This document shows, piece after piece, positions 8,734 through 49,551 of a DNA stretch of 64,000 nt. Source of the DNA: Callorhinchus milii (taxonomy: Eukaryota). A program made the translations under genes and the position numbers. The stretch is from contig NW_024704742.1 of NCBI RefSeq assembly GCF_018977255.1, forward strand, positions 75,084,001 through 75,148,000, read 5' to 3'. Every line of letters begins with the position of its first letter. Position 1 is the first letter of the stretch. The notes under the pieces were generated by a model. It was not told the DNA's origin and made no database searches. It saw nothing but the letters and a program-made list of their open reading frames with translations.

Positions 8734-9043
8734 AATAATAATCCTTGCATTTGATATAGCACTTTTCACATCTTCTAGACGGCTCAAAGCGCTTCACAGA
8801 ATAGACTGTAAAGTGAATTGACTGTATATTTGTGAGCGAAACGCAGCAGCCAATTGCGCACAGCAGTGTCCCACAAACAGTTGGGGATTGAAAATGACCA
8901 ATTTATTATTGTTTTGTTTTGGAGGGATTATTATTAGGCGTATGGAGTAAGGAAACTTGCCCAAGGTTTCGCCCTGCCTGGAATTGAACCCAGGTGTCTC
9001 GCTTGCAAAGCGAGTGCTCTAACCACTGAGCTACAGGACTCCA
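8734..9043 (-). mobile_element. Full-length tRNA-Ala(UGC)-derived SINE with L2-type tail (short variant, about 310 bp)
   Basis: Minus strand: A box TAGCTCAGTGG, anticodon arm CTCGC-TTTGCAA-GCGAG, B box GGTTCAATTCC, CORE-like ccttgggcaagtt, tail gctatatcaaatgcaagg(att)n. Confidence 0.93.
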
Positions 9044-13584: not shown

Positions 13585-13920
13585 TAATAATAATAATCCT
13601 TGCATTTGATATAGCACCTTATCATGTCTTCGAGACATCTCAAAACGCTTCACAGAATATACTGTAAAATGAATTGACTGCATACTTTGCGGGCGAAACC
13701 AGCAGCGAATTGTGCACAGCAGTGTCCCACAAACATACATTGAGTGACCAAATGTTTTTTTATTGTTTATTTTATTATCCCCAGGGAAATGATCCGCCAA
13801 TCCACTAACAATTGGGTTCCTACTTAAAGAGCTGTGTGGAGTAAGGAAATTTGCCTAATGTTTCACCCTGCCTGGGAATCAAACCCAGGCCCTCTCGCTT
13901 GTGAAGCGAGTGCTCTAACT
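13585..13920 (-). mobile_element. tRNA-Ala-headed SINE, long variant, nested in L2
   Basis: (taa)n tccttgcatttgatatagc ... ggagtaaggaaatttgcc ... gcgagtgctctaac; carries the extra internal segment (gatccgccaatccactaaca). Confidence 0.9.
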
Positions 13921-13934
13921 AATATACTAATATA

Positions 13935-17156: not shown

Positions 17157-17783
17157 AACTCTGCAGCTCGTGTACTGTCCCGCACCAGGCTTCGGGACCA
17201 CATCACTCCCACCCTCGCTCGCCTCCACTGGCTCCCCATCCCCCAGAGGATCGAATTCAAGATCCTCATCCTCACCTACAAGGCCATTCACGGCCTTGCT
17301 CCCTCCTACCTCTCCGACCTACTATCCCCCTACCTACCTGCCCGTACCCTCCGTTCCTCTGGCTCTGGTCTGCTCCACGTCCCCCGCCCCAACCACCCTA
17401 CCATCGGTGGTCGGGCCTTCAGCCTCTCAGCCCCCAGGCTCTGGAACTCCATCCCCCAGTGCCTTCGCCTTGCTTCCTCCCTTTCCTCCTTCAAGGCCGG
17501 TCTCAAAACCTTTCTCTTTGACCGAGCCTTCAGCTCCCCTCTCGACTCTCTTCCCCCTCCTCGCTCCCTCCCTTCCCTCCCCCTGACCATTTCCCCCCTC
17601 CTTGCTCCCTCCCTTCCCTCCCCTCACCCTGACCATTTCCCCCCTCCTCGCTCCCTCCCTTCCCTCCCCTCACCCTGACCATTTCCCCCTGCTCGGGTCA
17701 TGACCCAACTGTGCAGCGCCTTGGGACGTCCTCCTGACGTGAAAGGCGTTTTATAAATGGAATCTTGTTGTTGTTGTTGTTGT
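17157..17783 (+). mobile_element. Young 5'-truncated L2 with complete 3' tail
   Basis: Nearly identical (inverted) to 1-390; tail gcgccttgggacgtcctcctgacgtgaaaggcgttttataaatgg..(ttg)n. Confidence 0.95.
17553..17695 (+). repeat. C-rich minisatellite (about 3 x 41-46 bp) in the L2 3' UTR
   Basis: Unit ccccctcctcgctccctcccttccctcccct(caccct)gaccatttc repeated three times. Confidence 0.9.
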
Positions 17784-23334: not shown

Positions 23335-25225
23335 TACAGGTGGTGGAGGGTGGAGTGTGGAGGGCAGGGGGGGGGAAGCAGGGTAATTGAAAGTACGGTC
23401 GAAGAGGAGGGTCTGGAGATGGGTCTTAAAGGAGGCTCGGGAGGGGGCGAGGTAGAGAAACTGCAGGATGGAGTTCCAGAGGGTGAGGGCAGAGTAGCAG
23501 GAGGCCCAGCCACCAATGGTGGGGCGGGCGAAATGGGGACGTGAAGCAGGCCAGATACCGCTGAGCGGAGGGAGCAGGCAGGATGGTAGGGGGTTAGGAG
23601 ATCGCAGAGATAGGGGGGAGCAAGACCATGGAGGGCTTTGAAGGTGAGGACCAGGATCTTGAACTGTATCCTCTATGTGATGGGAAGCCAATGGAGTCGG
23701 GCGAGGATGGGGTTGATAGGGTCACGGAGCCTTGTGCAGGAGAGGGCAAGGGCTGCAGAGTTCTGAATGATCTGCAGCCTATGGAGGAAGGAGTTGGGGA
23801 GGCCGACAAGCAAGGAGTTTGCATAGCCAAGCCTCGATGTAATTAATGCATGTATGAGGGTTTCGGCGGCCTGCGGTGTGAGACAGTGGCAAAGCCGGGC
23901 AATGTTACGGAGGTGGGGGAAGGCAGAACGGGTCATGGCTTGGATGTGGGGTAGATAGGATAGCTCAGGGTCAAACAAGATGCCAAGCTTCCGGACTGGC
24001 TCAGTAAGGTGGAATACGCATCCATAGATGATGATGCTGTCAGCACCCGAGATGTGGATTTGCCGATGGGAGCCAATCAGAAGAGCCTCGGTCTTGTTGA
24101 CGTTCAACTGAAGAAAGTTGGCTCTCATCCAGGACTTGAGATCTCACAGACATTCCATCAGGACAGCAGTGGTCCTGAAGACAAGAGTGGAGGTAGAGAG
24201 GTACAGTTGGATGTCATCTGCAAACATGTGGAAGTTGACCCCAAGTCTGCAGATGATGTCACCAAGAGGGAGCATATGGCTATTGAAGAGAAGGGGACCA
24301 AGGATAGAGCCCTGAGAAACGCTGCATGAGACTGTGCGGGTGCTAGAGGAGAAACCGTTTGTGGAGATGAAGTGGAGGTGGTGTGAGAAGTATGATCTGA
24401 ACCTGTCAAGGACAAAGTCATGAAGGTTGAGGTGAGAGAGGCAGTGGATGAGGATGAAGTAGTTGATGGCGTCAAAGGCAGAGAAGTCAAGGAGGACGAG
24501 GAGGCAGAGAGAACCCTGGTCGCAGATGGACAGAATATCATTTGTCGCTTTGACCAGAGCTGTTTCTGTGCTGTGGGCAGCATGGAAACCCGATTGGTGA
24601 GGTTCATGAAGGGAGTGGCGGGAGAGGAAAGAGCAAAGCTGGGAAGCAACAACTAGTTCCAGGACCTTGGAGAGGAAAGGGAGGTTGGTGATGGGGTAGT
24701 AGCTTGAGAGCAGAGATGGGCTCAGGGAGGGTTTTTTTAAAGATAGGAGTGATGATGGCTATTTTTAATGGGGTGTGAACAGTACCAGTGGACAGTGAGA
24801 GGTTTCTAATGTCTGTGAATAGGGGGGCAAGGAGGTGGAGCTGGGAGGTAAGGAGAGTCGTAGGGATGGGGTAAAGGGAGCAGGTGGTCGGTTTCATGTG
24901 GGTTATAGTGGTGGTGAGAGAGGAGTGGGAGACAGGTTCAAAGGTGTGGAGGGAGATGGTTTGTGGCCGAGTTGGGAGGGGGAGATGGGGAGGGGTAGTG
25001 GTCAGAAGAGCAGAGGCAGCTGAGTGGATCCCCTCAACTTTGGATTCAAGGAAGTCCAGCATCGCCTCACAGTTGGCATTGGAAGTGAAAATGGGTGAGG
25101 TGTGTGAGGGTGGGCGGAGGACCCGGTTGGTGAAGAGGAGCCTGGGGTTCTCCTTGGCCTCCAAGATTGTCTTGGAGTAGAACAACAATTTAGTGGCGGT
25201 GAGGGCAGAGCGGTAGGAGTCCATC
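23335..25225 (-). mobile_element. L2 LINE, RT domain to 3' UTR
   Basis: FYSKTILEAKENPRLLF, MKPTTCSLYPIPT, LKIAIITPIFKK, MRANFLQLNVNKTEALLIGS ... SRLGYANSLLVGLP ... LARLHWLPI. Confidence 0.95.
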
Positions 25226-26058: not shown

Positions 26059-26742
26059 GCAAAATACTGCAGATGCTGGAAATCTGAACAAAAACAGAAG
26101 TCACCTGGAACACTCAGCAGGTTAGGCAGGTCAGGTCAGGTCATCTGCAGACTTAGGGTTATGGTCTGAAATTATTGAAATCTATATTGATGCCAGAGGA
26201 CTGTAAGGTTCCCAGCAGATAAATGGGATGCTGTTCCTCGAGCTTGCACTGTGACTGATTGGAACAGCCTAGGAGACCGTGGATGGAGAGGTCAGAGTGT
26301 GAGTGGGAGGGAGAGTTGAAGTGGTATGAAACCGGAGGCTCAGGTTTGTGCTCGCGGACAGAACGGAGATGTTCGGCAAACCGATCACCCAATCTGGTTT
26401 CGTCTCCCCAATGCAGAGGAGACCATATCATGAGCAGCGAATGCAGTAAACTACATTGGTGGTAGTACACGTGAATCACTGTCTCACTTGATTGCAATCC
26501 CCTCATCTTTGTTTTGCATCATTAACATCTCTTTAACCCATCATTCCCTGTCTTCTACCCCATTTTCTCTTTTGTCTTCCTCGCCCTGCCTCCTCCCTCT
26601 CTGTTAGCCCTTAAAAGCCTCTCTCTCATAACATGCCCCAGTTCCGACGAAGGGTCGTGGACCCGAAATGTTGACTCACTTTTCTTTCTCCGTAGATGCT
26701 GCCTGACCTGCTGAGTGTTCTCAGCGACTTCTGTTTTTGTTT
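26059..26742 (-). mobile_element. Penelope-like element: GIY-YIG endonuclease remnant between inverted pLTR segments, 14-bp TSD
   Basis: Minus strand NVVYCIRCS..GLLCIGET, then after a frameshift RLGDRFAEHLRSV...HFNSPSHSHSDL...LEEQH..YLLGTLQSSGINIDF; TSD tacattacaccagc at 26045-26058 and 26743-26756; 26089-26129 pairs with 26699-26739. Confidence 0.93.
26640..26677 (+). ncRNA. Minimal (type I) hammerhead ribozyme motif, core mutated
   Basis: CCGACGA (consensus CUGANGA) - A - GGGTC/GTG/GACCC stem II - GAAA - TGTT; located in a PLE pLTR, where such motifs are known. Confidence 0.7.
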
Positions 26743-33058: not shown

Positions 33059-33383
33059 AATAATAATAATCCTTGCATTTGATATAGCGCTTTTCACATC
33101 GGGAGGACGTCCCAAAGCGCTTCACAGAACACACTGTAAAGTGAATTGACTGTATATTTGTGGGCGAACGCGGCAGCCAATTGCGCACAGCAATGTCCCA
33201 CAAACAGTCATATGGATTGAAAATGACCAGTTTATTATTGTTTTTGGTTTTGGAGAGATTATTATTAGGCTCTGTGTGGAGTAAGGAAACTTGCCCAAGG
33301 TTTCGCGCTGACCTGCCTGGGATTGAACTCAGGTCTCTCACTTGCAAAGCGAGTGCTCTTAACCACTGAGCTACAGGACTCCA
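33059..33383 (-). mobile_element. Full-length tRNA-Ala-headed SINE (short variant)
   Basis: Minus strand tggagtcctgtagctcagtgg ... ctcgctttgcaagtgag ... gcgctatatcaaatgcaaggattattatta. Confidence 0.94.
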
Positions 33384-35079
33384 CAAAATCATAATGGGTT
33401 GCGTAACAATGACTGAGACACAAATAGTCACTCCTTCTGGTATCCAAAACAGTTGACATGCCACCTCACAGGAACTCCATCCAATCCGAGCCAATCTCCT
33501 TCAAACACCAAATTCTCCAGTTAGGGCAATAGTATACCTCTGTTACCAGAAGGAGTCCCATGTATGACTGGAAATCCTTATCAAATTTAGACTCGATGGA
33601 CTGAATGACCTCCTTCAATGTTATAATTTGCACGGTTCTATGGATTTCAGCCACATTGTCAAAAATAATTTTAAAAAAGAAAATTGTGTGTTTAGTATCT
33701 ATTAATCAAACTACAGAGTCCCTTAAATGTCAGCATTAGCCGAGTGAAGAGGCTCCAAGATTCTCTTTACATATTTGCTATTGAGCACATCAGCATTAGG
33801 ACTGTTCACAAATGGAGAAATACACTGGATGATTTATGTGGCTGTAAATGTATCTCACTTCAATGTTAGGTGGAAACATTGTAGCCAACAATAGTTTCAG
33901 TGCAAAACAATAGGGTTTTAAATGGTTTAACTGAAAATATCAACTGTGCAGCAATTTCATTAAATCATTTGCAGTTTGGATCACAACGCTGACTGTGTTG
34001 AGCTAATTGAAACATAATTACTGTATTCTGAGGAGCTTCAAATACTTATTATGGATTTTTGTGTAGAGCCAATATACTGCGATTTGGTTGATAAGGTATG
34101 ATTTAGTCAGTGCATGAAGGTTAGCAGATTCTGTGCGAGAGAGGTAACTGTCAAATACCTTCTAACATCAGTCCCACTCTGGTTTTCACTACACATGGAG
34201 CTCCGGCAATTACTTTCTCTCATGTAGGGTAACACTCTCAGCAATAGCTGCATGTTTATTCATGGCATGAACAATTAGAATCACCCTCCAGGAGTCTTCT
34301 AGCAATTCACACAGGTCCTCAATTTTAAACAACAAATGAAGGCAATGCATTTGGAATACACAAGTTAGATACATTAGATAACATGGGCTTTTATTCATGG
34401 CCCACAAATATTTGAGCGCAATCAAAATGCTAATCCTAATGACTATTTATCCATCCCAATAACTTAAAAACAACTGATAGTTGGTTTGTTTGTACTGGTG
34501 GCACAGCATAACAAAGGCCACACATTCACTAATCATTTCCCTTTTCTTTTGTCTCTTTTTCTGTTTTCATTTTGCCACCTGGCTCTTTCAGCAAAGGCTA
34601 TTGATAAAATCCCTTGCCGTTCAGACACGCTAACCCGTTTAATTACATTTTTTTAAAAAAAAGAAAAATCACGATAACGACTGTAGCCGATTTGGGGCTG
34701 CAGTGGCTTGGTGGGTGGAAGATATCAGAGCCCCAAACGATCCGTGGCTGATCACGGTGGGTTTTTTAATAGCCATCAATGGAATTAGACTTCAATGGAG
34801 ACCATTCTGGAGTTAGGAGTCCAGAAAGGAAATTCCAATGCACAAACAGTAAAACAAGCAGCTAAAAAGCGTCGGCTCCACGATCCTCTCATCGGCAGTG
34901 TACTTATTACAAACATGGGGCCCCAAAACAGCCGAGAGAATGGAGGACTTGCTGCAACCCCCCCCCCTCCCCTGGTCGCTAATGGTGTGGGAGGCTTGGG
35001 TTTCATTTCTTTCGGTTGCCCCTGACCTTGCAGTCCCTCGGTCCTTGGGATCCATAATCCATTCTTAACTGCCCCCGTC

Positions 35080-35081
<2 letters not shown>

Positions 35082-35110
<29 letters not shown>
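35082..35110. repeat. (GT)n microsatellite
   Basis: About 14 perfect TG units. Confidence 0.95.
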
Positions 35111-35423
35111 CTGGCTGTCACTCTCACAAGCCAACGAAGGCTCTGACACACATAAAACCAGAAGGCTGCATTTCACGGGGCTCTGGAAACACCAACACAA
35201 GAGCACCACTCTGCTTCCCTGAGCCATTTCAGACTCGCGCTTCTCTATTTTTATTCAGAACAACCTTACTTTCCGAAGCTGTGAGGGGGCAGCTGGTTTG
35301 GCTTGAGGACACTTCAAACGATAAAACATTATTTTTTTGGGGGGTTTAAAAAAAAATTTTAAAAATTCTTAAAAGACAACAACAAAATCTCGTGCATGTC
35401 CAACACGAAGACATAAACAGTAC

Positions 35424-35484
35424 CTTGTTCCCACAGTGATCACTCTCCTTCCAGTGTGTGCGTTTCAACAATAACACTTCAAAC
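35424..35484 (-). other. tet2: Probable 61-nt internal 5' exon
   Basis: Acceptor tttttttttcgcctcttttAG|G (AG at 35486-35485) and donor AAG|GTACTG (GT at 35423-35422); gene assignment rests on the adjacent TET2-like exon 1. Confidence 0.62.
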
Positions 35485-35638
35485 CTAAAAGAGGCGAAAA
35501 AAAAACTACATGAGGATAAAGTGACACTGTCAATTCTGGTTAGTTTAAAATTTAAAACACACGCACAGAAGCAGAGGGGAGAGGGGGAGGGGAAGGGGGG
35601 GGGGGGGGGCAGCAGCAGAAGCCCAACTAAACACTCAC

Positions 35639-35726
35639 CACATCAAGACAGAAGAGATACAAAATCTGATAGTTTCTTTATCAAACTAATATTGTCAGCC
35701 ATGTTGGAGAAGCTTTGGCTAATTTT
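35639..35726 (-). other. tet2: Probable alternative first exon/leader with a 19-codon uORF (5' boundary uncertain)
   Basis: Strong donor GTG|GTGAGT (GT at 35638-35637), YY1-type caacATGGct, no good upstream acceptor (poly-G precedes the AG). Confidence 0.55.
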
Positions 35727-35838
35727 CTAGCCCCCCCCCCCCATTTCCCCCTCTTTCATGAGATCATGCAAAGTTCATTTTCATCCACTCTCCCCCCGAC
35801 GGAAAGAAAACGATCAAATGAGAAACAGAAAGCCTTAC

Positions 35839-36050
35839 TCGGTGGCGGGGAAATCACTGCAGGCCTTCGCCTTCCCTCCGACGTCGCGGAATCCAGCAGC
35901 AAAAAAAAATTTACAATCCGTCTCCTTTCAAACAAAATCCTAAAGGGCAGCCATTTTGCTTCCTTCTGCTCCTCTACGAAAGCAGACTGGGCTTCACATC
36001 AATATTCATACAGCAGCAGACTGACGTCTATTATCATCACCCACCAAACC
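35839..36050 (-). other. tet2: Non-coding first exon, TET2-like (TSS not defined)
   Basis: Minus strand gtgatgataatagacgtc...tatgaatattgatg...ctgctttcgtagaggagcagaaggaagcaaaatggctgccctttaggattttgtttgaaaggagac closely follows human TET2 exon 1 as I recall it (...tatgaatattgatg...ctgctttcgtagagaagcagaaggaagcaagatggctgccctttaggatttgttagaaaggagac); donor CGA|GTAAGG at 35838-35837. Not database-verified. Confidence 0.8.
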
Positions 36051-36520
36051 CCAGTGCTGCTGCTCCCCAGCCCAAAGTTTGCACGTGACTAGCATTTGCA
36101 CCAACAAGTAGGTATTGTGTGGGGAAGATCAGTTCGCCTGTTTGGGTGACTGTAAATCATTTCCCTACGAGATCCTTAAACACAAAGGGACCCCTATGAT
36201 TTCTGACTGCACAATAGTGAACATTACTGAAGCTGCACTGAAACTCTGGAGTGGAGCGCACCGCACAAGGACTGCCCTCTCCCCCATCGGCTCCTATTGG
36301 TATCCCCCCCACCACCTCCACCCCTTGATCACTCAGCGGCCACCCACCGAGCTGCTCAGGCACAAAAAAAAACAAAGGTTAGAAAAATGACCCAGACCTT
36401 TCTTTATTAATAATAATAATCTTGGCTTTTAATCCTCCTGATGTTGCAGTGCAGTTTTCTGAACACTTCCTGTTTCTTTTCTTCTGCAGTACTTCACCCA
36501 CTTCCTATCTTGCAACACGC
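35940..36520 (-). promoter_or_regulatory. tet2: Pol II promoter region with YY1, CRE, E-box, CCAAT and ETS motifs
   Basis: GCCATTTT 35950-35957 (YY1), TGACGTC 36022-36028 (CRE-like), CACGTGAC 36082-36089 (USF/MiT E-box), ATTGG 36296-36300, CACTTCCT near 36463 and 36501; locally raised CpG and no recognisable TEs. Confidence 0.72.
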
Positions 36521-37310
36521 TCATCCCATCTTTTTTTAAAAAAAAAACCCCCACCCTTTTAACGTTTGCACAGGGGGCTGTTATTTATTTGGAACTCGTA
36601 GGTTGGAACCCCTCTTGACCTGAAACCCCCCCCAGAGAGTCAACAGGACAAGAACCCCGACCATCCATCCCGTCTGCCATCCCCAATTGGTGCAGCCCAT
36701 GTGGGTTGTGCAGGAGAAAAACCAGCCACGTGCAGTCAGTGCTGCACCAGCTAATGTCTGTGCCATCAGAGCAGTCATTCCCTCCAGTCAAATGCACCCC
36801 CTAAACATGTCTTTGCTTAGATCTCAAGTTTATGTTGATCTTCTCTGGACTTCAGAGTTTTAAAAATAATTGAGGCGTTTTTTTTCTGAGACCCCGACTT
36901 TGCAAGTATTTTTTCTTTTAAGCACGAAGTCTGTGGATGTGATTTCCTTCGCGTGTTTAAATGTGTCTCCTTTCGGAAGTACATTGTGTCACTTCTTGCT
37001 CTCACTCCTTTGAAATGTAACTCTGAGCAGAACAGGTGGTTCGTGTTGGGAGGATAATCCGCTCTGGCTGTGCACCAGCTATAAACCACCACTGGCCCCT
37101 TCCTGCCAGTCAGCCTTCCTAACCAATGTGACATTTGTTGACTCTGAACAGAATGCACATCCCCCACCAGTCAGCCCGGGAGATAGTCAGTGTGCTTCAA
37201 ACTAAGGGACATTACGTAAATTTAGAGTGCAGGGGATGGGAGATGGCTCCAATTTACTGAAACACTTTTACATAGAATTTTACAAATCTCGGCCGATCTA
37301 TCATTATGTG

Positions 37311-38881: not shown

Positions 38882-39184
38882 TGGAGTCCTGTAGCTCAGT
38901 GGTTAGAGCACTTGTCTCAAAAGCAAGAGACCTGGGTTCCATTCCTGGCAGAGCTAAACGTTGTGCAAGTTTCCTTACTCCACATGCCTCTGTTTACCTA
39001 GCAGGAAGTAGGAACCTGGTTGATAGTCGATTGGCGGATCACTTTTCCGTGGATAATAATTGGCTGCCGTGATTCGCCCACAAAATATACAGCCAATTCA
39101 CTTCATAGTATATTCTGTGAAGCTCTTTGAGACGTCTCGAAGACGCGATAAGGTGCTACATCAAATGCAAGGATTATTATTATT
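38882..39184 (+). mobile_element. tRNA-headed SINE, long variant with internal deletion
   Basis: tggagtcctgtagctcagtggttagagcac ... caaatgcaaggattattattatt. Confidence 0.92.
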
Positions 39185-40845: not shown

Positions 40846-42384
40846 TTGTACAGAGCAACATGTGTGCAAATATTAAACCAAAATATTATTTAGATTTTTT
40901 TCATTAAGAGTTGAATATATTGATTCCCATTTGTACATCATATTGGCATGCATTGTTGAATTGATCTGTTTATTGAGATCATGATGTAGAGCCTATCTTG
41001 AGCGATTATCCAATATCAGCAGCCAAACAGTAATACAGCTCAATGCAGTTGTTAAGGAGAGCAACCCTCAGAGCAACCACCTGTTTAATATGGCCAAGAC
41101 AACAAACAGCTCTGTCTTCAGGAAGCTGTGCTGTGAAATTCACTCAATAGCAATGCCCGCATCCCACCAGGAAATAATGAGTGCCACTTGTCTCTGCCAA
41201 ACAGGCATGATCGCAGTCTAACTAAAAGTACACTCTGTTTATACAGCGGATTGAATTTACATTAAATTTAATGATCCAAACCTAGTTCAACCTTGTGACT
41301 CTCTATAGCACACCCTGGGCAAGATTGAAGTAACAGCTGCTGGTGGTAATTTAGTTTGGTGTGAAGTGCTTGGGTGTCAACTGCAAAGGATTATTCTCAT
41401 TATCATTATTTGGATATTCACTTCATGGGCGTTGATGAGACATTGTGAATTGTGCAAATTAGCTGCTGTGTTTAGCTACAAAATACATAGTGACTAAATG
41501 TTCGAGTACAGTAAAATATTCTTTACAGAATTTCAACATACCCATCCTTATCCTCATGATTTCTGCCTGACTTTTAAATTTTAAAATTTTAAGATTTTAA
41601 AACCTGAACATTTGCCTTTTTTTCCATGGAAACTAGATGTAACTACATCTCTCCTTTCCCCCCTCCCAACACCAATAGATGGCACATTTTATAGAAAACT
41701 CTGTGAGGCACTTTGAAGCATTTTGAAGTGATAAGGTGCTGTATCAAATGCAAGGATTACTTTAACTATTATCATTGGCAATGTTGTTATATTGCAGTCA
41801 AACCATTTGATGAGTATTGATTGACAATGCATATGAAGCCCTCACCTACTCCCGCTTTGCTGAAACACTAGCAGTTGCCATTATTGCCATCTGCAAAGCA
41901 TGGAATTTCAGTACCATTTCATGGGTTGCTGGTTTAACCCTGATTCAATGAGGCATTTCCTCCTAATTGAATGGGTATCGAAGACCATTTAATTTGCAAA
42001 GAACTTCAGGACATAAAAGTCATGCACTTTAAAAGAACTTGAGATTAGAAATATTTTGTTTTTGGCACATAAAGATTTATGAACACGTTTAATAGTTTCC
42101 CAGATAAAGCTTAAAATGGAATGGGAATGAAAACTCTATAAGAGATAATTACACATAAAGGAATCCCTTTTTTGGAAGAGGGAGTGATGACGGCGGTTTC
42201 GGGGGGAATGGAAGTCTGCAGAGAGGGACAGTTGACTATATCAACCAGCAGGGGGCAGAGGAGGGGGGTTGAGTGACCAGGAGCTGGGTGGAGAGAGGTA
42301 GAGGCAGCAGGTAGTGATCTTTGTGTTGATGATGATGGTTGAGAGGGAGGAAGGAGAGTCAGGTGAGTCCACCAACAGCACAAT

Positions 42385-43150
42385 ATTATTCGTAAAGAGA
42401 AGTGCCCCAGTCCTTCCCCATCGATCCCATCCAATACGTCGTTGATGAACACATCAAACAGGGTGGGTGACAATGGGCAGCTTTGCCTTATCCCACTTTC
42501 CAGAGGGATTGGCTCAGTGAGTTCAGTATCTACCAATACACGAATCTTGGCAATACACATTTTGGATAAAATCCAGAATTCAGCCATGTATTCCCATGGA
42601 TTCCAGTTTCATCAAGAGGGCCTCATGAGGCACTAGGTCAAAAGCCTTACAAAATTCGATGATCGCGAATTTGGTGGATTTCCCCTCAGCTTTATGACGT
42701 TCTGCGATTTCATACAGAGACACAACTTGTCCCACACATTCCTCATGAGAACGGAAGCCTGCCTGTTCCATCCTGATCAAATCCCGAGCCTCCCAATGTG
42801 TGCGATACATGTCCAGTGACTCCTGAAGCACCAATTTTAGAGTCACTGAAATCAGCGAGATCCCTCTGAAGTTACCAGTTTCACTAGAGTCACCTTTCTT
42901 ATGGACAGACTCCACAATTTCATTCTGGAATACTGATCGGGTGTGTGCCTCAGAGAGAATCCAGAGACCAGGGCTAAGAGGGCAGCTTCAAGGTGAGTTA
43001 GGGATTCCATTGGCAAGGCACCACAGTGCAGAGTCCATCTCCTCCCAGCGGATTGGGTCATTAAGGCCTTCAATGTGGCCCATGCCTTCCGCCAGCTCTT
43101 CCAACCTCCATGCAGATGGATCTCTGCTATGTTCTGTTGGGTCAAATGCC
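42385..43150 (-). mobile_element. Reverse-transcriptase fragment of an RTE/RTE-X-like non-LTR element
   Basis: HKKGDSSETGNFRGISLIS, EQAGFR, EFCKAFDLVPHEALLMKL, GIRQSCPLSPTLFDVFIND; frameshifted; motifs differ from the L2/CR1 copies here. Confidence 0.85.
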
Positions 43151-43309
43151 AACTCTGCGTAATGCTCCCTCCAGTGTCAGCGTAAACTATGTGACTTCCA
43201 AATATCAATGTGGATTTTGAACTCACAACCTTCCGACTTAAAGGCAAGGGTGCCACCAACTGAGCCAGTTGATGCCTTTGGTGCCATTAAGCCACAAAAA
43301 CAAGGCAAT

Positions 43310-48481: not shown

Positions 48482-48794
48482 AATAATAATCCTTGCATTT
48501 GATATAGTGCTTTCCACGTCTTCTAGACGTCCCAAAGCGCTTCACAGAATATACTGTAAAGTGAATTGACTGTATATTTGCGGGCGAAGGCGGCAGCCAA
48601 TTGCGCACATCAATGTCCCACAAACAGTCATGGATTGAAAATGACCAATTTATTATTGTTTTTTGTTTTTTGGAGGGATTATTATTAGGCGTGCGGAGTA
48701 AGGAAACTTGCCCAAGGTTTCGCTCTGCCTGGAATTGAACTCAGGTCTCTCACTTGCAAAGCGAGTGCTGTAACCACTGAGCTACAGAACTCCA
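48482..48794 (-). mobile_element. Full-length tRNA-Ala-headed SINE (short variant)
   Basis: Same head, body and tail as 8734-9043. Confidence 0.94.
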
Positions 48795-49248: not shown

Positions 49249-49551
49249 AATAATAATCCTAGCATTTGATATAGCGCTTTTCACGTCTTCTAGGAGTCTC
49301 AAAGTGCTTCACAGAATATGCTGTAAAGTGAATTGACTGTATATTTGCGAAACGCGGCAGCAAATTGCACACAGCAGTGTCCACAAACAGTCGTGGATTG
49401 AAGTGACCAATGTATTATTGTTTTGTTTTGGAGTGATTATTATTAGGCGTGTGGAGTAAGGAAACTCGCCCAAGGTTTCGCCTGCCGGGAATTGACCCCG
49501 GGTGTCTTGCTTGCAAGGTGAGTGCTTTAACCACTGAGCTACAGGATTCCC
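49249..49551 (-). mobile_element. Full-length tRNA-Ala-headed SINE abutting an L2 tail (49180-49248)
   Basis: aataataatcctagcatttgatatagcg ... aaccactgagctacagga. Confidence 0.92.

What the first reader, a model, noticed from the sequence alone, without database searches (positions are those of the whole stretch)
35839..36100. Deeply conserved non-coding first exon/core promoter of TET2 in an apparent cartilaginous fish
Seen: a TE-free minus-strand block with YY1, CRE-like and E-box motifs and a GT donor. Recalled: about 120 nt of it follows human TET2 exon 1 closely. Established: mammalian TET2 lacks a CXXC domain, and the neighbouring CXXC4/IDAX gene is thought to have split from it by inversion. 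Inference: conservation of this leader across jawed vertebrates would mean the stand-alone TET2 promoter predates the chondrichthyan/osteichthyan split and is strongly constrained. It also contains a 4-codon uORF (ATG GCT GCC CTT TAG) on the YY1 site.
Basis: partly seen in the sequence, partly recalled or inferred. Interest (0 to 1): 0.7.

Follow-up and report, generated by a model that had tools for sequence, protein, structure and literature searches.

The report
Elephant-shark counterpart of TET2 main promoter
A short stretch of an elephant-shark-type genome matches published pieces of the main human TET2 promoter and first exon, so the switch that starts this DNA-demethylation gene is probably as old as jawed vertebrates; this is a new example of a known kind of conservation, and the link to the shark's coding exons is not yet shown.

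Summary
The features are there: a 3.9-kb stretch without self-repeats, single USF-type E-box and CRE-like sites, a YY1-type site carrying a 4-codon ORF and a GT donor at 35838. Two published human TET2 promoter oligos find their best match in 64 kb inside the block, 19 nt apart on the minus strand: 18/20 (0 of 200 shuffles) and 16/20 with an exact 14-mer (0 of 200). Ten other oligos gave no match there. LINE proteins point to Callorhinchus milii (17 of the top 18 hits). Best reading: orthologue of human TET2 Pro2 / exon 1b (0.85). Not shown: the full 120-nt alignment, the start site, the exon end (a stronger donor lies at 35638) and splicing to tet2 coding exons, which are not in the window. 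A shark tet2 gene is in print and a separate CXXC4 beside it appears to be, so the dating adds little. The ATG is part of the YY1 core, so its presence alone does not show uORF function; a conserved TISU-like brake on TET2 translation is the bold reading (0.2). Interest 0.33.

The parts
33397..37301 (.). Island without self-repeats around the promoter, flanked by tRNA-derived SINE copies
   Evidence: longest of 32 such stretches; no other window hit for 33451-35800 and 36101-37250; multi-copy hits for both flanks; CpG o/e 0.42
36082..36089 (-). USF-type E-box (GTCACGTG); probable proximal promoter element
   Evidence: only minus-strand copy in the window; binding not tested; human counterpart not tested (guide 18 gave no match above chance)
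36022..36029 (-). CRE-like octamer (AGACGTCA); probable proximal promoter element
   Evidence: only minus-strand copy; label is from my knowledge of the CRE consensus; binding not tested
35994..36013 (-). Anchor 1: best match in the window to human TET2 promoter guide TE#20
   Evidence: 16/20 with exact 14-mer at 36010-35997; guide from PMC13376164 Supplementary Data 3; 11 of 200 shuffled windows reach 16/20, 0 of 200 reach a 14-mer
35955..35974 (-). Anchor 2: best match in the window to human primer TET2-Pro2-Rev (3' end of the Pro2 reporter, +1024)
   Evidence: 18/20, orientation as for a minus-strand gene, 0 of 200 shuffled windows; primer from PMC6566030 Table 1
35960..35985 (-). Predicted main transcription start zone (inference only)
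   Evidence: YY1/TISU-type motifs sit just downstream of start sites (PMC2518114; PMC8384218); no RNA data
35950..35957 (-). YY1-type core, TISU-like, overlapping the upstream ATG
   Evidence: YY1 occupies the mouse and human TET2 promoter (bioRxiv 10.64898/2026.01.27.701530), site not mapped in the passages read
35940..35954 (-). 4-codon upstream ORF, purine at -3 and G at +4
   Evidence: translation not tested
35833..35841 (-).
   Evidence: CGA|GTAAGG, 95th percentile of minus-strand GT sites under an approximate, recalled frequency matrix
35633..35641 (-). Second, stronger candidate donor (exon end 35639): alternative end of this exon or of another first exon
   Evidence: GTG|GTGAGT, 99th percentile under the same matrix; use not tested

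Best explanation
The block is the elephant-shark orthologue of the dominant human TET2 promoter (Pro2) and non-coding exon 1b. It is a TATA-less promoter in which E-box (USF/bHLH) and CRE-like (CREB/ATF) sites upstream and a YY1 site just downstream of the start drive broad transcription on the minus strand. The short exon splices from 35838 (or 35638) across an intron of more than 35 kb to tet2 exons left of the window. The sequence is kept mainly because transcription factors read it as DNA; the ATG is part of the YY1 core. Shown: motifs, two anchors to human TET2, taxon. From papers: Pro2 dominance and YY1 occupancy in mammals. Inferred: start site, splicing, factor binding in the shark.
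For: Two oligos from two unrelated papers have their best window match inside the block, on one strand, 19 nt apart: 18/20, 0 of 200 shuffles; 16/20 with a 14-mer, 0 of 200 for the 14-mer and 2 of 21,300 random 300-nt stretches for 16/20. Pro2 is the strongest human promoter and holds the largest human-mouse homology blocks (PMC6566030). The first coding exon is about 87 kb away in human, which fits its absence here (longest ORF 337 aa; 28 of 82 ORFs scanned, 3 hits, all reverse transcriptase). 17 of the top 18 relatives of a window LINE protein are labelled Callorhinchus milii; all 20 so labelled among 120 listed are 58-75% identical, the rest at most 55%. The shark has tet1/2/3 (PMC6976628). 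Earlier notes put GAK, SMARCAD1, LIN54/SEC31A, LARP7 and IL2 on this same chromosome (unchecked; that these are human chromosome 4 genes, like TET2, is my knowledge for the five, and one search gives chr. 4 for TET2). Local CpG enrichment and repeat depletion fit a promoter.
Against: Only 40 human bases support the match. 10 of 12 oligos tested gave no match in the block above chance, including the exon-1b primer Pro2-RT-For (+1082) and guides 18 and 19, so the likeness seems to fade on both sides. I picked guides 18-20 (3 of 20) after seeing that guide 20 looked alike. Guide 20's 16/20 alone is reached by 11 of 200 shuffled windows, and Pro2-For has a 15/18 match 20 kb away reached by only 2 of 200, so single hits can mislead. 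No tet2 coding exon, no cxxc4 and no exon 2 were found in the window. No classical CpG island. The human Pro2 reporter ends just before the position of the ATG and is still 75- to 90-fold active, so the YY1 core is not needed for reporter activity if the alignment holds.
Confidence: 0.85

Rival explanations
1. Homologous to the human TET2 Pro2 region but not the working first exon in the shark: it acts as a minor promoter or enhancer, or the exon ends at 35639, and most tet2 transcripts start elsewhere.
For: Human TET2 has three promoters within 2.5 kb; the named donor is moderate and a stronger one lies 200 nt on; the exon-1b 3' primer has no match; no RNA evidence was obtained.
Against: The matched part is the one reported as dominant in human and mouse; a donor follows 116 nt after anchor 2, and human exon 1b runs at least 81 nt past the same point (primer positions).
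Confidence: 0.08
2. An unrelated housekeeping-type promoter (another gene or a long non-coding RNA) that resembles human TET2 because both carry common E-box, CRE and YY1 motifs.
For: These motifs are common in vertebrate promoters; the window was chosen for its likeness; synteny next to the window is untested.
Against: Both anchors lie between or beside the motifs rather than on them (36013-35994 and 35974-35955); the local chance of the second anchor is about 1 in 10,000; the chromosome context fits (unchecked).
Confidence: 0.05
3. A detached or duplicated copy of the tet2 5' end, a promoter of a paralogue (tet1/tet3), or foreign DNA in the assembly.
For: The neighbours of the window could not be read.
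Against: Human TET1 promoters are reported as non-homologous to TET2's; the anchors differ from human at 6 of 40 bases and are embedded among this genome's SINE and LINE copies.
Confidence: 0.02

Closest known systems
Human TET2 Pro2 promoter / exon 1b (Lou et al. 2019, PMC6566030; whole text read, figures not held)
   Same: Two published oligos of the region match at 34 of 40 bases, same strand, 19 nt apart; non-coding exon far from the coding exons.
   Different: The paper compares human with mouse only. Pro1, Pro3 and the ends of Pro2 have no detectable match here; the shark region is 50% G+C with modest CpG enrichment, whereas human TET2 has a promoter CpG island.
Hyperconserved vertebrate 5' leaders that are really promoters, e.g. 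Hoxa9 E-box (bioRxiv 10.1101/2020.06.29.165878 and PMC9456764; passages read)
   Same: Deep conservation at a 5' end, with a USF-type E-box; DNA-level reading explains the conservation.
   Different: Those are defined by 250 nt or more of high-scoring PhastCons overlap; the support here spans 59 nt. Tet2 was not found in the main text or in searchable supplements; the preprint's Table S1 could not be read.
TISU elements (PMC2518114; passages read)
   Same: YY1-type site with an ATG near the presumed start; in 36% of TISU genes the ATG is not the main start and is out of frame or followed by a stop, as here.
   Different: The base before the ATG differs from the TISU flank quoted in the paper; distance to the real start site and any effect on translation are unknown.
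YY1-TET2 axis in mouse and human (bioRxiv 10.64898/2026.01.27.701530; PMC7055126; passages read)
   Same: YY1 occupies the TET2 promoter; the shark block offers a candidate site.
   Different: The first paper does not map the site in the passages read; the second uses a different predicted motif near -270 and reports repression.

Membership tests
Orthologue of human TET2 Pro2 / exon 1b | Sequence homology to the human Pro2 region | tested here: met
   2 of 12 oligos match in the block (18/20, 16/20), both best in 64 kb, 19 nt apart; only 40 bases; 10 oligos without a match
Orthologue of human TET2 Pro2 / exon 1b | tet2 coding exons downstream on the same strand, cxxc4 upstream and opposite | not testable with these tools
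   No genome held; none in the window; earlier notes name no such gene
Orthologue of human TET2 Pro2 / exon 1b | Chromosome homologous to human chromosome 4 | tested here: inconclusive
   AI notes list GAK, SMARCAD1, LIN54/SEC31A, LARP7, IL2 31-75 Mb away on the same piece; unchecked and distant
Orthologue of human TET2 Pro2 / exon 1b | Transcription start in the block and splicing from its donor into tet2 | not tested
   No RNA result obtained; two candidate donors
Cartilaginous-fish genome | Resident retroelements closest to chondrichthyan ones | tested here: met
   17 of top 18 hits labelled Callorhinchus milii (one LINE fragment tested); window G+C 42.8% against 42.3% for that genome
Hyperconserved 5'UTR (h5UTR) | At least 250 nt overlap with PhastCons LOD 500 elements | not testable with these tools
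   Definition; no alignment tracks; Tet2 not found
TISU element | YY1-like motif with ATG, purine -3 and G +4 | tested here: inconclusive
   Purine -3 and G +4 present; -1 base differs from the flank quoted; the full consensus was not in the passages read
TISU element | Position within about 30 nt downstream of the start site | not tested
   Start site unknown
Functional uORF | Ribosome occupancy and effect on main-ORF output; conserved stop | not testable with these tools
   ORF present; human counterpart is recalled only; none of the 12 titles listed concerns a TET2 uORF
CpG-island promoter | High G+C and CpG o/e above 0.6 over several hundred bases | tested here: not met
   0.72 over the chosen 262 nt at 50% G+C, but 0.52 over 701 nt and 0.48 over 2.5 kb

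The most novel reading that the evidence does not exclude
The YY1 site doubles as a cap-proximal, TISU-like start codon whose 4-codon ORF has been kept from chimaeras to humans. It would catch most scanning ribosomes, make TET2 output depend on reinitiation, and so set TET2 protein dose after transcription, perhaps in a stress-sensitive way. TET2 lost its CXXC module and would then have gained one composite element controlling both its transcription and its translation before jawed vertebrates split.
Probability: 0.2. Interest if true: 0.65.

Novelty: new member of a known kind. Interest (0 to 1): 0.33.

Why it matters
TET2 is a dose-sensitive tumour suppressor in blood, and its promoter has been compared only between human and mouse in the paper read. 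A shark counterpart would narrow the 410-nt human Pro2 to a core of roughly 60-150 nt and name candidate sites (E-box, CRE-like, YY1) to mutate, including a site for the YY1 occupancy reported in 2026. It would also suggest a cheap test for translational control by a tiny uORF. As evolution it is unsurprising: conserved promoters and leaders between elephant shark and mammals are a known class, and a separate shark tet2 is in print.

Tried and rejected
Whole-genome synteny: no genome held. Rfam at gathering scores: 6 matches, all tRNA-like, none in the block. Public runs: no RNA holder listed; the shares of sampled words were not used as evidence. No read-mapping result was obtained, so splicing stays open. 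Oligos without a match in the block: Pro1-For, Pro1-Rev, Pro2-For, Pro2-RT-For, Pro3-For, Pro3-Rev (7 of the 11 Table 1 primers were run), guides 18 and 19 and a TET2 qPCR pair (3 of 20 full-length guides were run). A strict scan for downstream internal exons gave 0 candidates; thresholds were tight, so this says nothing. The three-motif cluster occurs in 1 of 300 shuffled windows, but the motifs were chosen from the finding, so I give it little weight. Pfam: 28 of 82 ORFs scanned, no TET or CXXC domain. Earlier scan notes: nothing near, no look-alikes, nothing on TET2 or its neighbours. Literature: searches listed no title on a shark or fish TET2 promoter, none on a TET2 uORF, none on USF/CREB at TET2; I saw listings only, and most subscription papers are outside the library. 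Tet2 not found in supplements of PMC9456764, PMC7484617, PMC10690280; these may not list all genes. Xi et al. 2007 and Sohni et al. 2015 are not held. A protein-coding reading was rejected: the plus-strand 139-aa frame at 35673-36092 has no other support; it was not among the 28 scanned.

Full report
1. The observation. On the minus strand the block holds a USF-type E-box (36089-36082), a CRE-like octamer (36029-36022), a YY1-type core (35957-35950), an ATG at 35954 that opens four codons, and a donor CGA|GTAAGG after 35839. The first two motifs occur once on the minus strand of the window; no TATA-like word was found in 35700-36700. About 34% of the window has self-BLAST hits; the longest stretch without any is 33397-37301, with SINE copies on both sides. 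CpG o/e is 0.72 in the block and 0.13-0.34 in 17 other repeat-free stretches, but there is no classical island (0.47 and 0.34 in the covering 500-nt bins). The motif labels come from my knowledge of the consensus sequences.

2. Is it TET2? No vertebrate genome could be searched, so I tested the recalled likeness with human sequence printed in papers. Lou et al. 2019 (PMC6566030, whole text read; Figure 1 with the sequence is not held; no supplement) describe three human TET2 promoters about 87 kb upstream of the first coding exon. Pro2 is dominant and the best conserved with mouse. Of 7 Table 1 primers run (of 11), TET2-Pro2-Rev matches 18 of 20 bases at 35974-35955, oriented as for a minus-strand gene; 0 of 200 dinucleotide-shuffled windows reach 18. 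PMC13376164 lists 20 full-length guides for the TET2 promoter (Supplementary Data 3; passages). I ran guides 18-20, chosen after seeing that guide 20 looked alike. Guide 20 has its best window match at 36013-35994, 16 of 20 with an exact 14-mer. 11 of 200 shuffled windows reach 16/20 somewhere, 0 of 200 reach a 14-mer, and 2 of 21,300 random 300-nt single-strand stretches reach 16/20. The two anchors lie 19 nt apart on one strand. Against: the other 10 oligos gave nothing in the block, among them the exon-1b primer at +1082 and guides 18 and 19; and Pro2-For has an unrelated-looking 15/18 match at 15682-15665 that only 2 of 200 shuffles reach. The case rests on the two best hits falling together, not on either alone.

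3. Whose genome? A LINE reverse-transcriptase fragment (24144-24755) has 17 of its top 18 relatives labelled Callorhinchus milii; the 20 so labelled among the 120 listed are 58-75% identical, all others at most 55%. Earlier AI notes on the same chromosome also say elephant shark and place GAK, SMARCAD1, LIN54/SEC31A, SOD3, LARP7 and IL2 on it, 31-75 Mb away (unchecked). These are human chromosome 4 genes by my knowledge, and TET2 is on chromosome 4. This fits but is not local synteny.

4. Surroundings. The window has no large host coding exon: the longest frame is 337 aa, and of 28 of 82 frames scanned three hit Pfam, all reverse transcriptase. So tet2 coding exons, if present, lie more than 35 kb downstream, as in human. 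Two donors compete: 35838 (95th percentile of minus-strand GT sites) and 35638 (99th), under an approximate recalled matrix. Human exon 1b extends at least 81 nt past anchor 2 (primer positions); the nearer donor gives 116 nt. No RNA result was obtained, so start site, exon end and splicing are open.

5. How it most likely works. A TATA-less, broadly active promoter: bHLH (USF-type) and CREB/ATF-type factors bind upstream and YY1 just downstream of the start. YY1 motifs are enriched just downstream of start sites in TATA-less human promoter classes (PMC8384218, passages), which puts the predicted start near 35985-35960 (inference). YY1 occupies the TET2 promoter in mouse progenitor cells and thymocytes and in human CD4 T cells (bioRxiv 10.64898/2026.01.27.701530, passages; supplements closed, and they may map the site). 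PMC7055126 (passages) reports YY1 repression through a different predicted motif. One caution: the human Pro2 reporter ends at the base aligned just before the ATG and is still 75- to 90-fold active, so the YY1 core has not been shown to be needed. Conserved E-boxes explain several 'hyperconserved leaders' as promoters (PMC9456764, passages), the closest precedent.

6. The uORF. It is real as sequence, with a purine at -3 and G at +4. But the ATG and the G belong to the YY1 core, and four more ATGs lie upstream in the block. YY1-type TISU elements are known; in 36% of such genes the ATG is not the main start and is out of frame or followed by a stop, and the authors suppose it inhibits translation (PMC2518114, passages). 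So the arrangement is a known class. A conserved stop outside the YY1 core would be the informative sign; in human it is recalled only. None of the 12 titles concerns a TET2 uORF.

7. What is known already. TET2 and CXXC4 are 700-800 kb apart and opposite in human and mouse, read as a split by inversion (PMC3653909, passages). The shark has tet1, tet2 and tet3 (PMC6976628, passages), and its Figure S5 text has a PPA2-TET2-CXXC4-TACR3 block where the shark rows should be (columns are not kept, so the assignment is inferred). The split therefore seems dated before the cartilaginous/bony divergence already. C. milii is reported as the slowest-evolving vertebrate genome (PMC3964593, passages), which lowers the surprise. 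I found no title on a shark or fish TET2 promoter (listings). Also consulted: PMC8661906 and PMC3977158 (passages), bioRxiv 10.1101/2020.06.29.165878 (passages; Table S1 closed and may list Tet2), PMC7484617 and PMC10690280 (supplement searches only). Sohni et al. 2015 is known to me only as cited in PMC6566030.

8. Verdict. Probably the true orthologue of human TET2 Pro2/exon 1b (0.85), apparently undescribed but of a familiar kind. Interest 0.33. The bold reading, a conserved TISU-like uORF that limits TET2 translation, has probability 0.2 and would deserve 0.65.

Noticed in passing
   Followed up: partly
window 36510-36295 (minus): Further upstream motifs in the repeat-free island: two ETS-like words (36506, 36471), a CCAAT (36300-36296) and GCTGAGTGAT (36337-36328). 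Guide 19 shares a 9-mer with the last, at chance level (97 of 200 shuffles).
   Followed up: partly
window 8969-9040, 13872-13929, 33308-33380, 38885-38956, 48720-48791, 49481-49545: tRNA calls by Rfam (6) and ARAGORN (4 of them; Ala and Leu) that are most likely heads of tRNA-derived SINEs, since they sit in a repeated unit of about 320 nt.
   Followed up: partly
window 42111-43286 (minus): A broken reverse-transcriptase fragment (Pfam RVT_1 on 42583-42987) in a stretch without self-repeats, so a different LINE type from the dominant one.
   Followed up: no
window 26159-26518 (minus): A 119-aa frame that looks from memory like a Penelope-type endonuclease fragment; no Pfam hit at 0.001.
   Followed up: partly
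window 35082-35110 and 17553-17689: A (TG)14.5 microsatellite in the presumed first intron, inside the repeat-free island, and a 46-nt tandem repeat of 3.1 copies at a LINE end.
   Followed up: no
window 15682-15665 (minus): 15/18 match to human primer Pro2-For, 20 kb from the block; 2 of 200 shuffles reach it; taken as chance.
   Followed up: no
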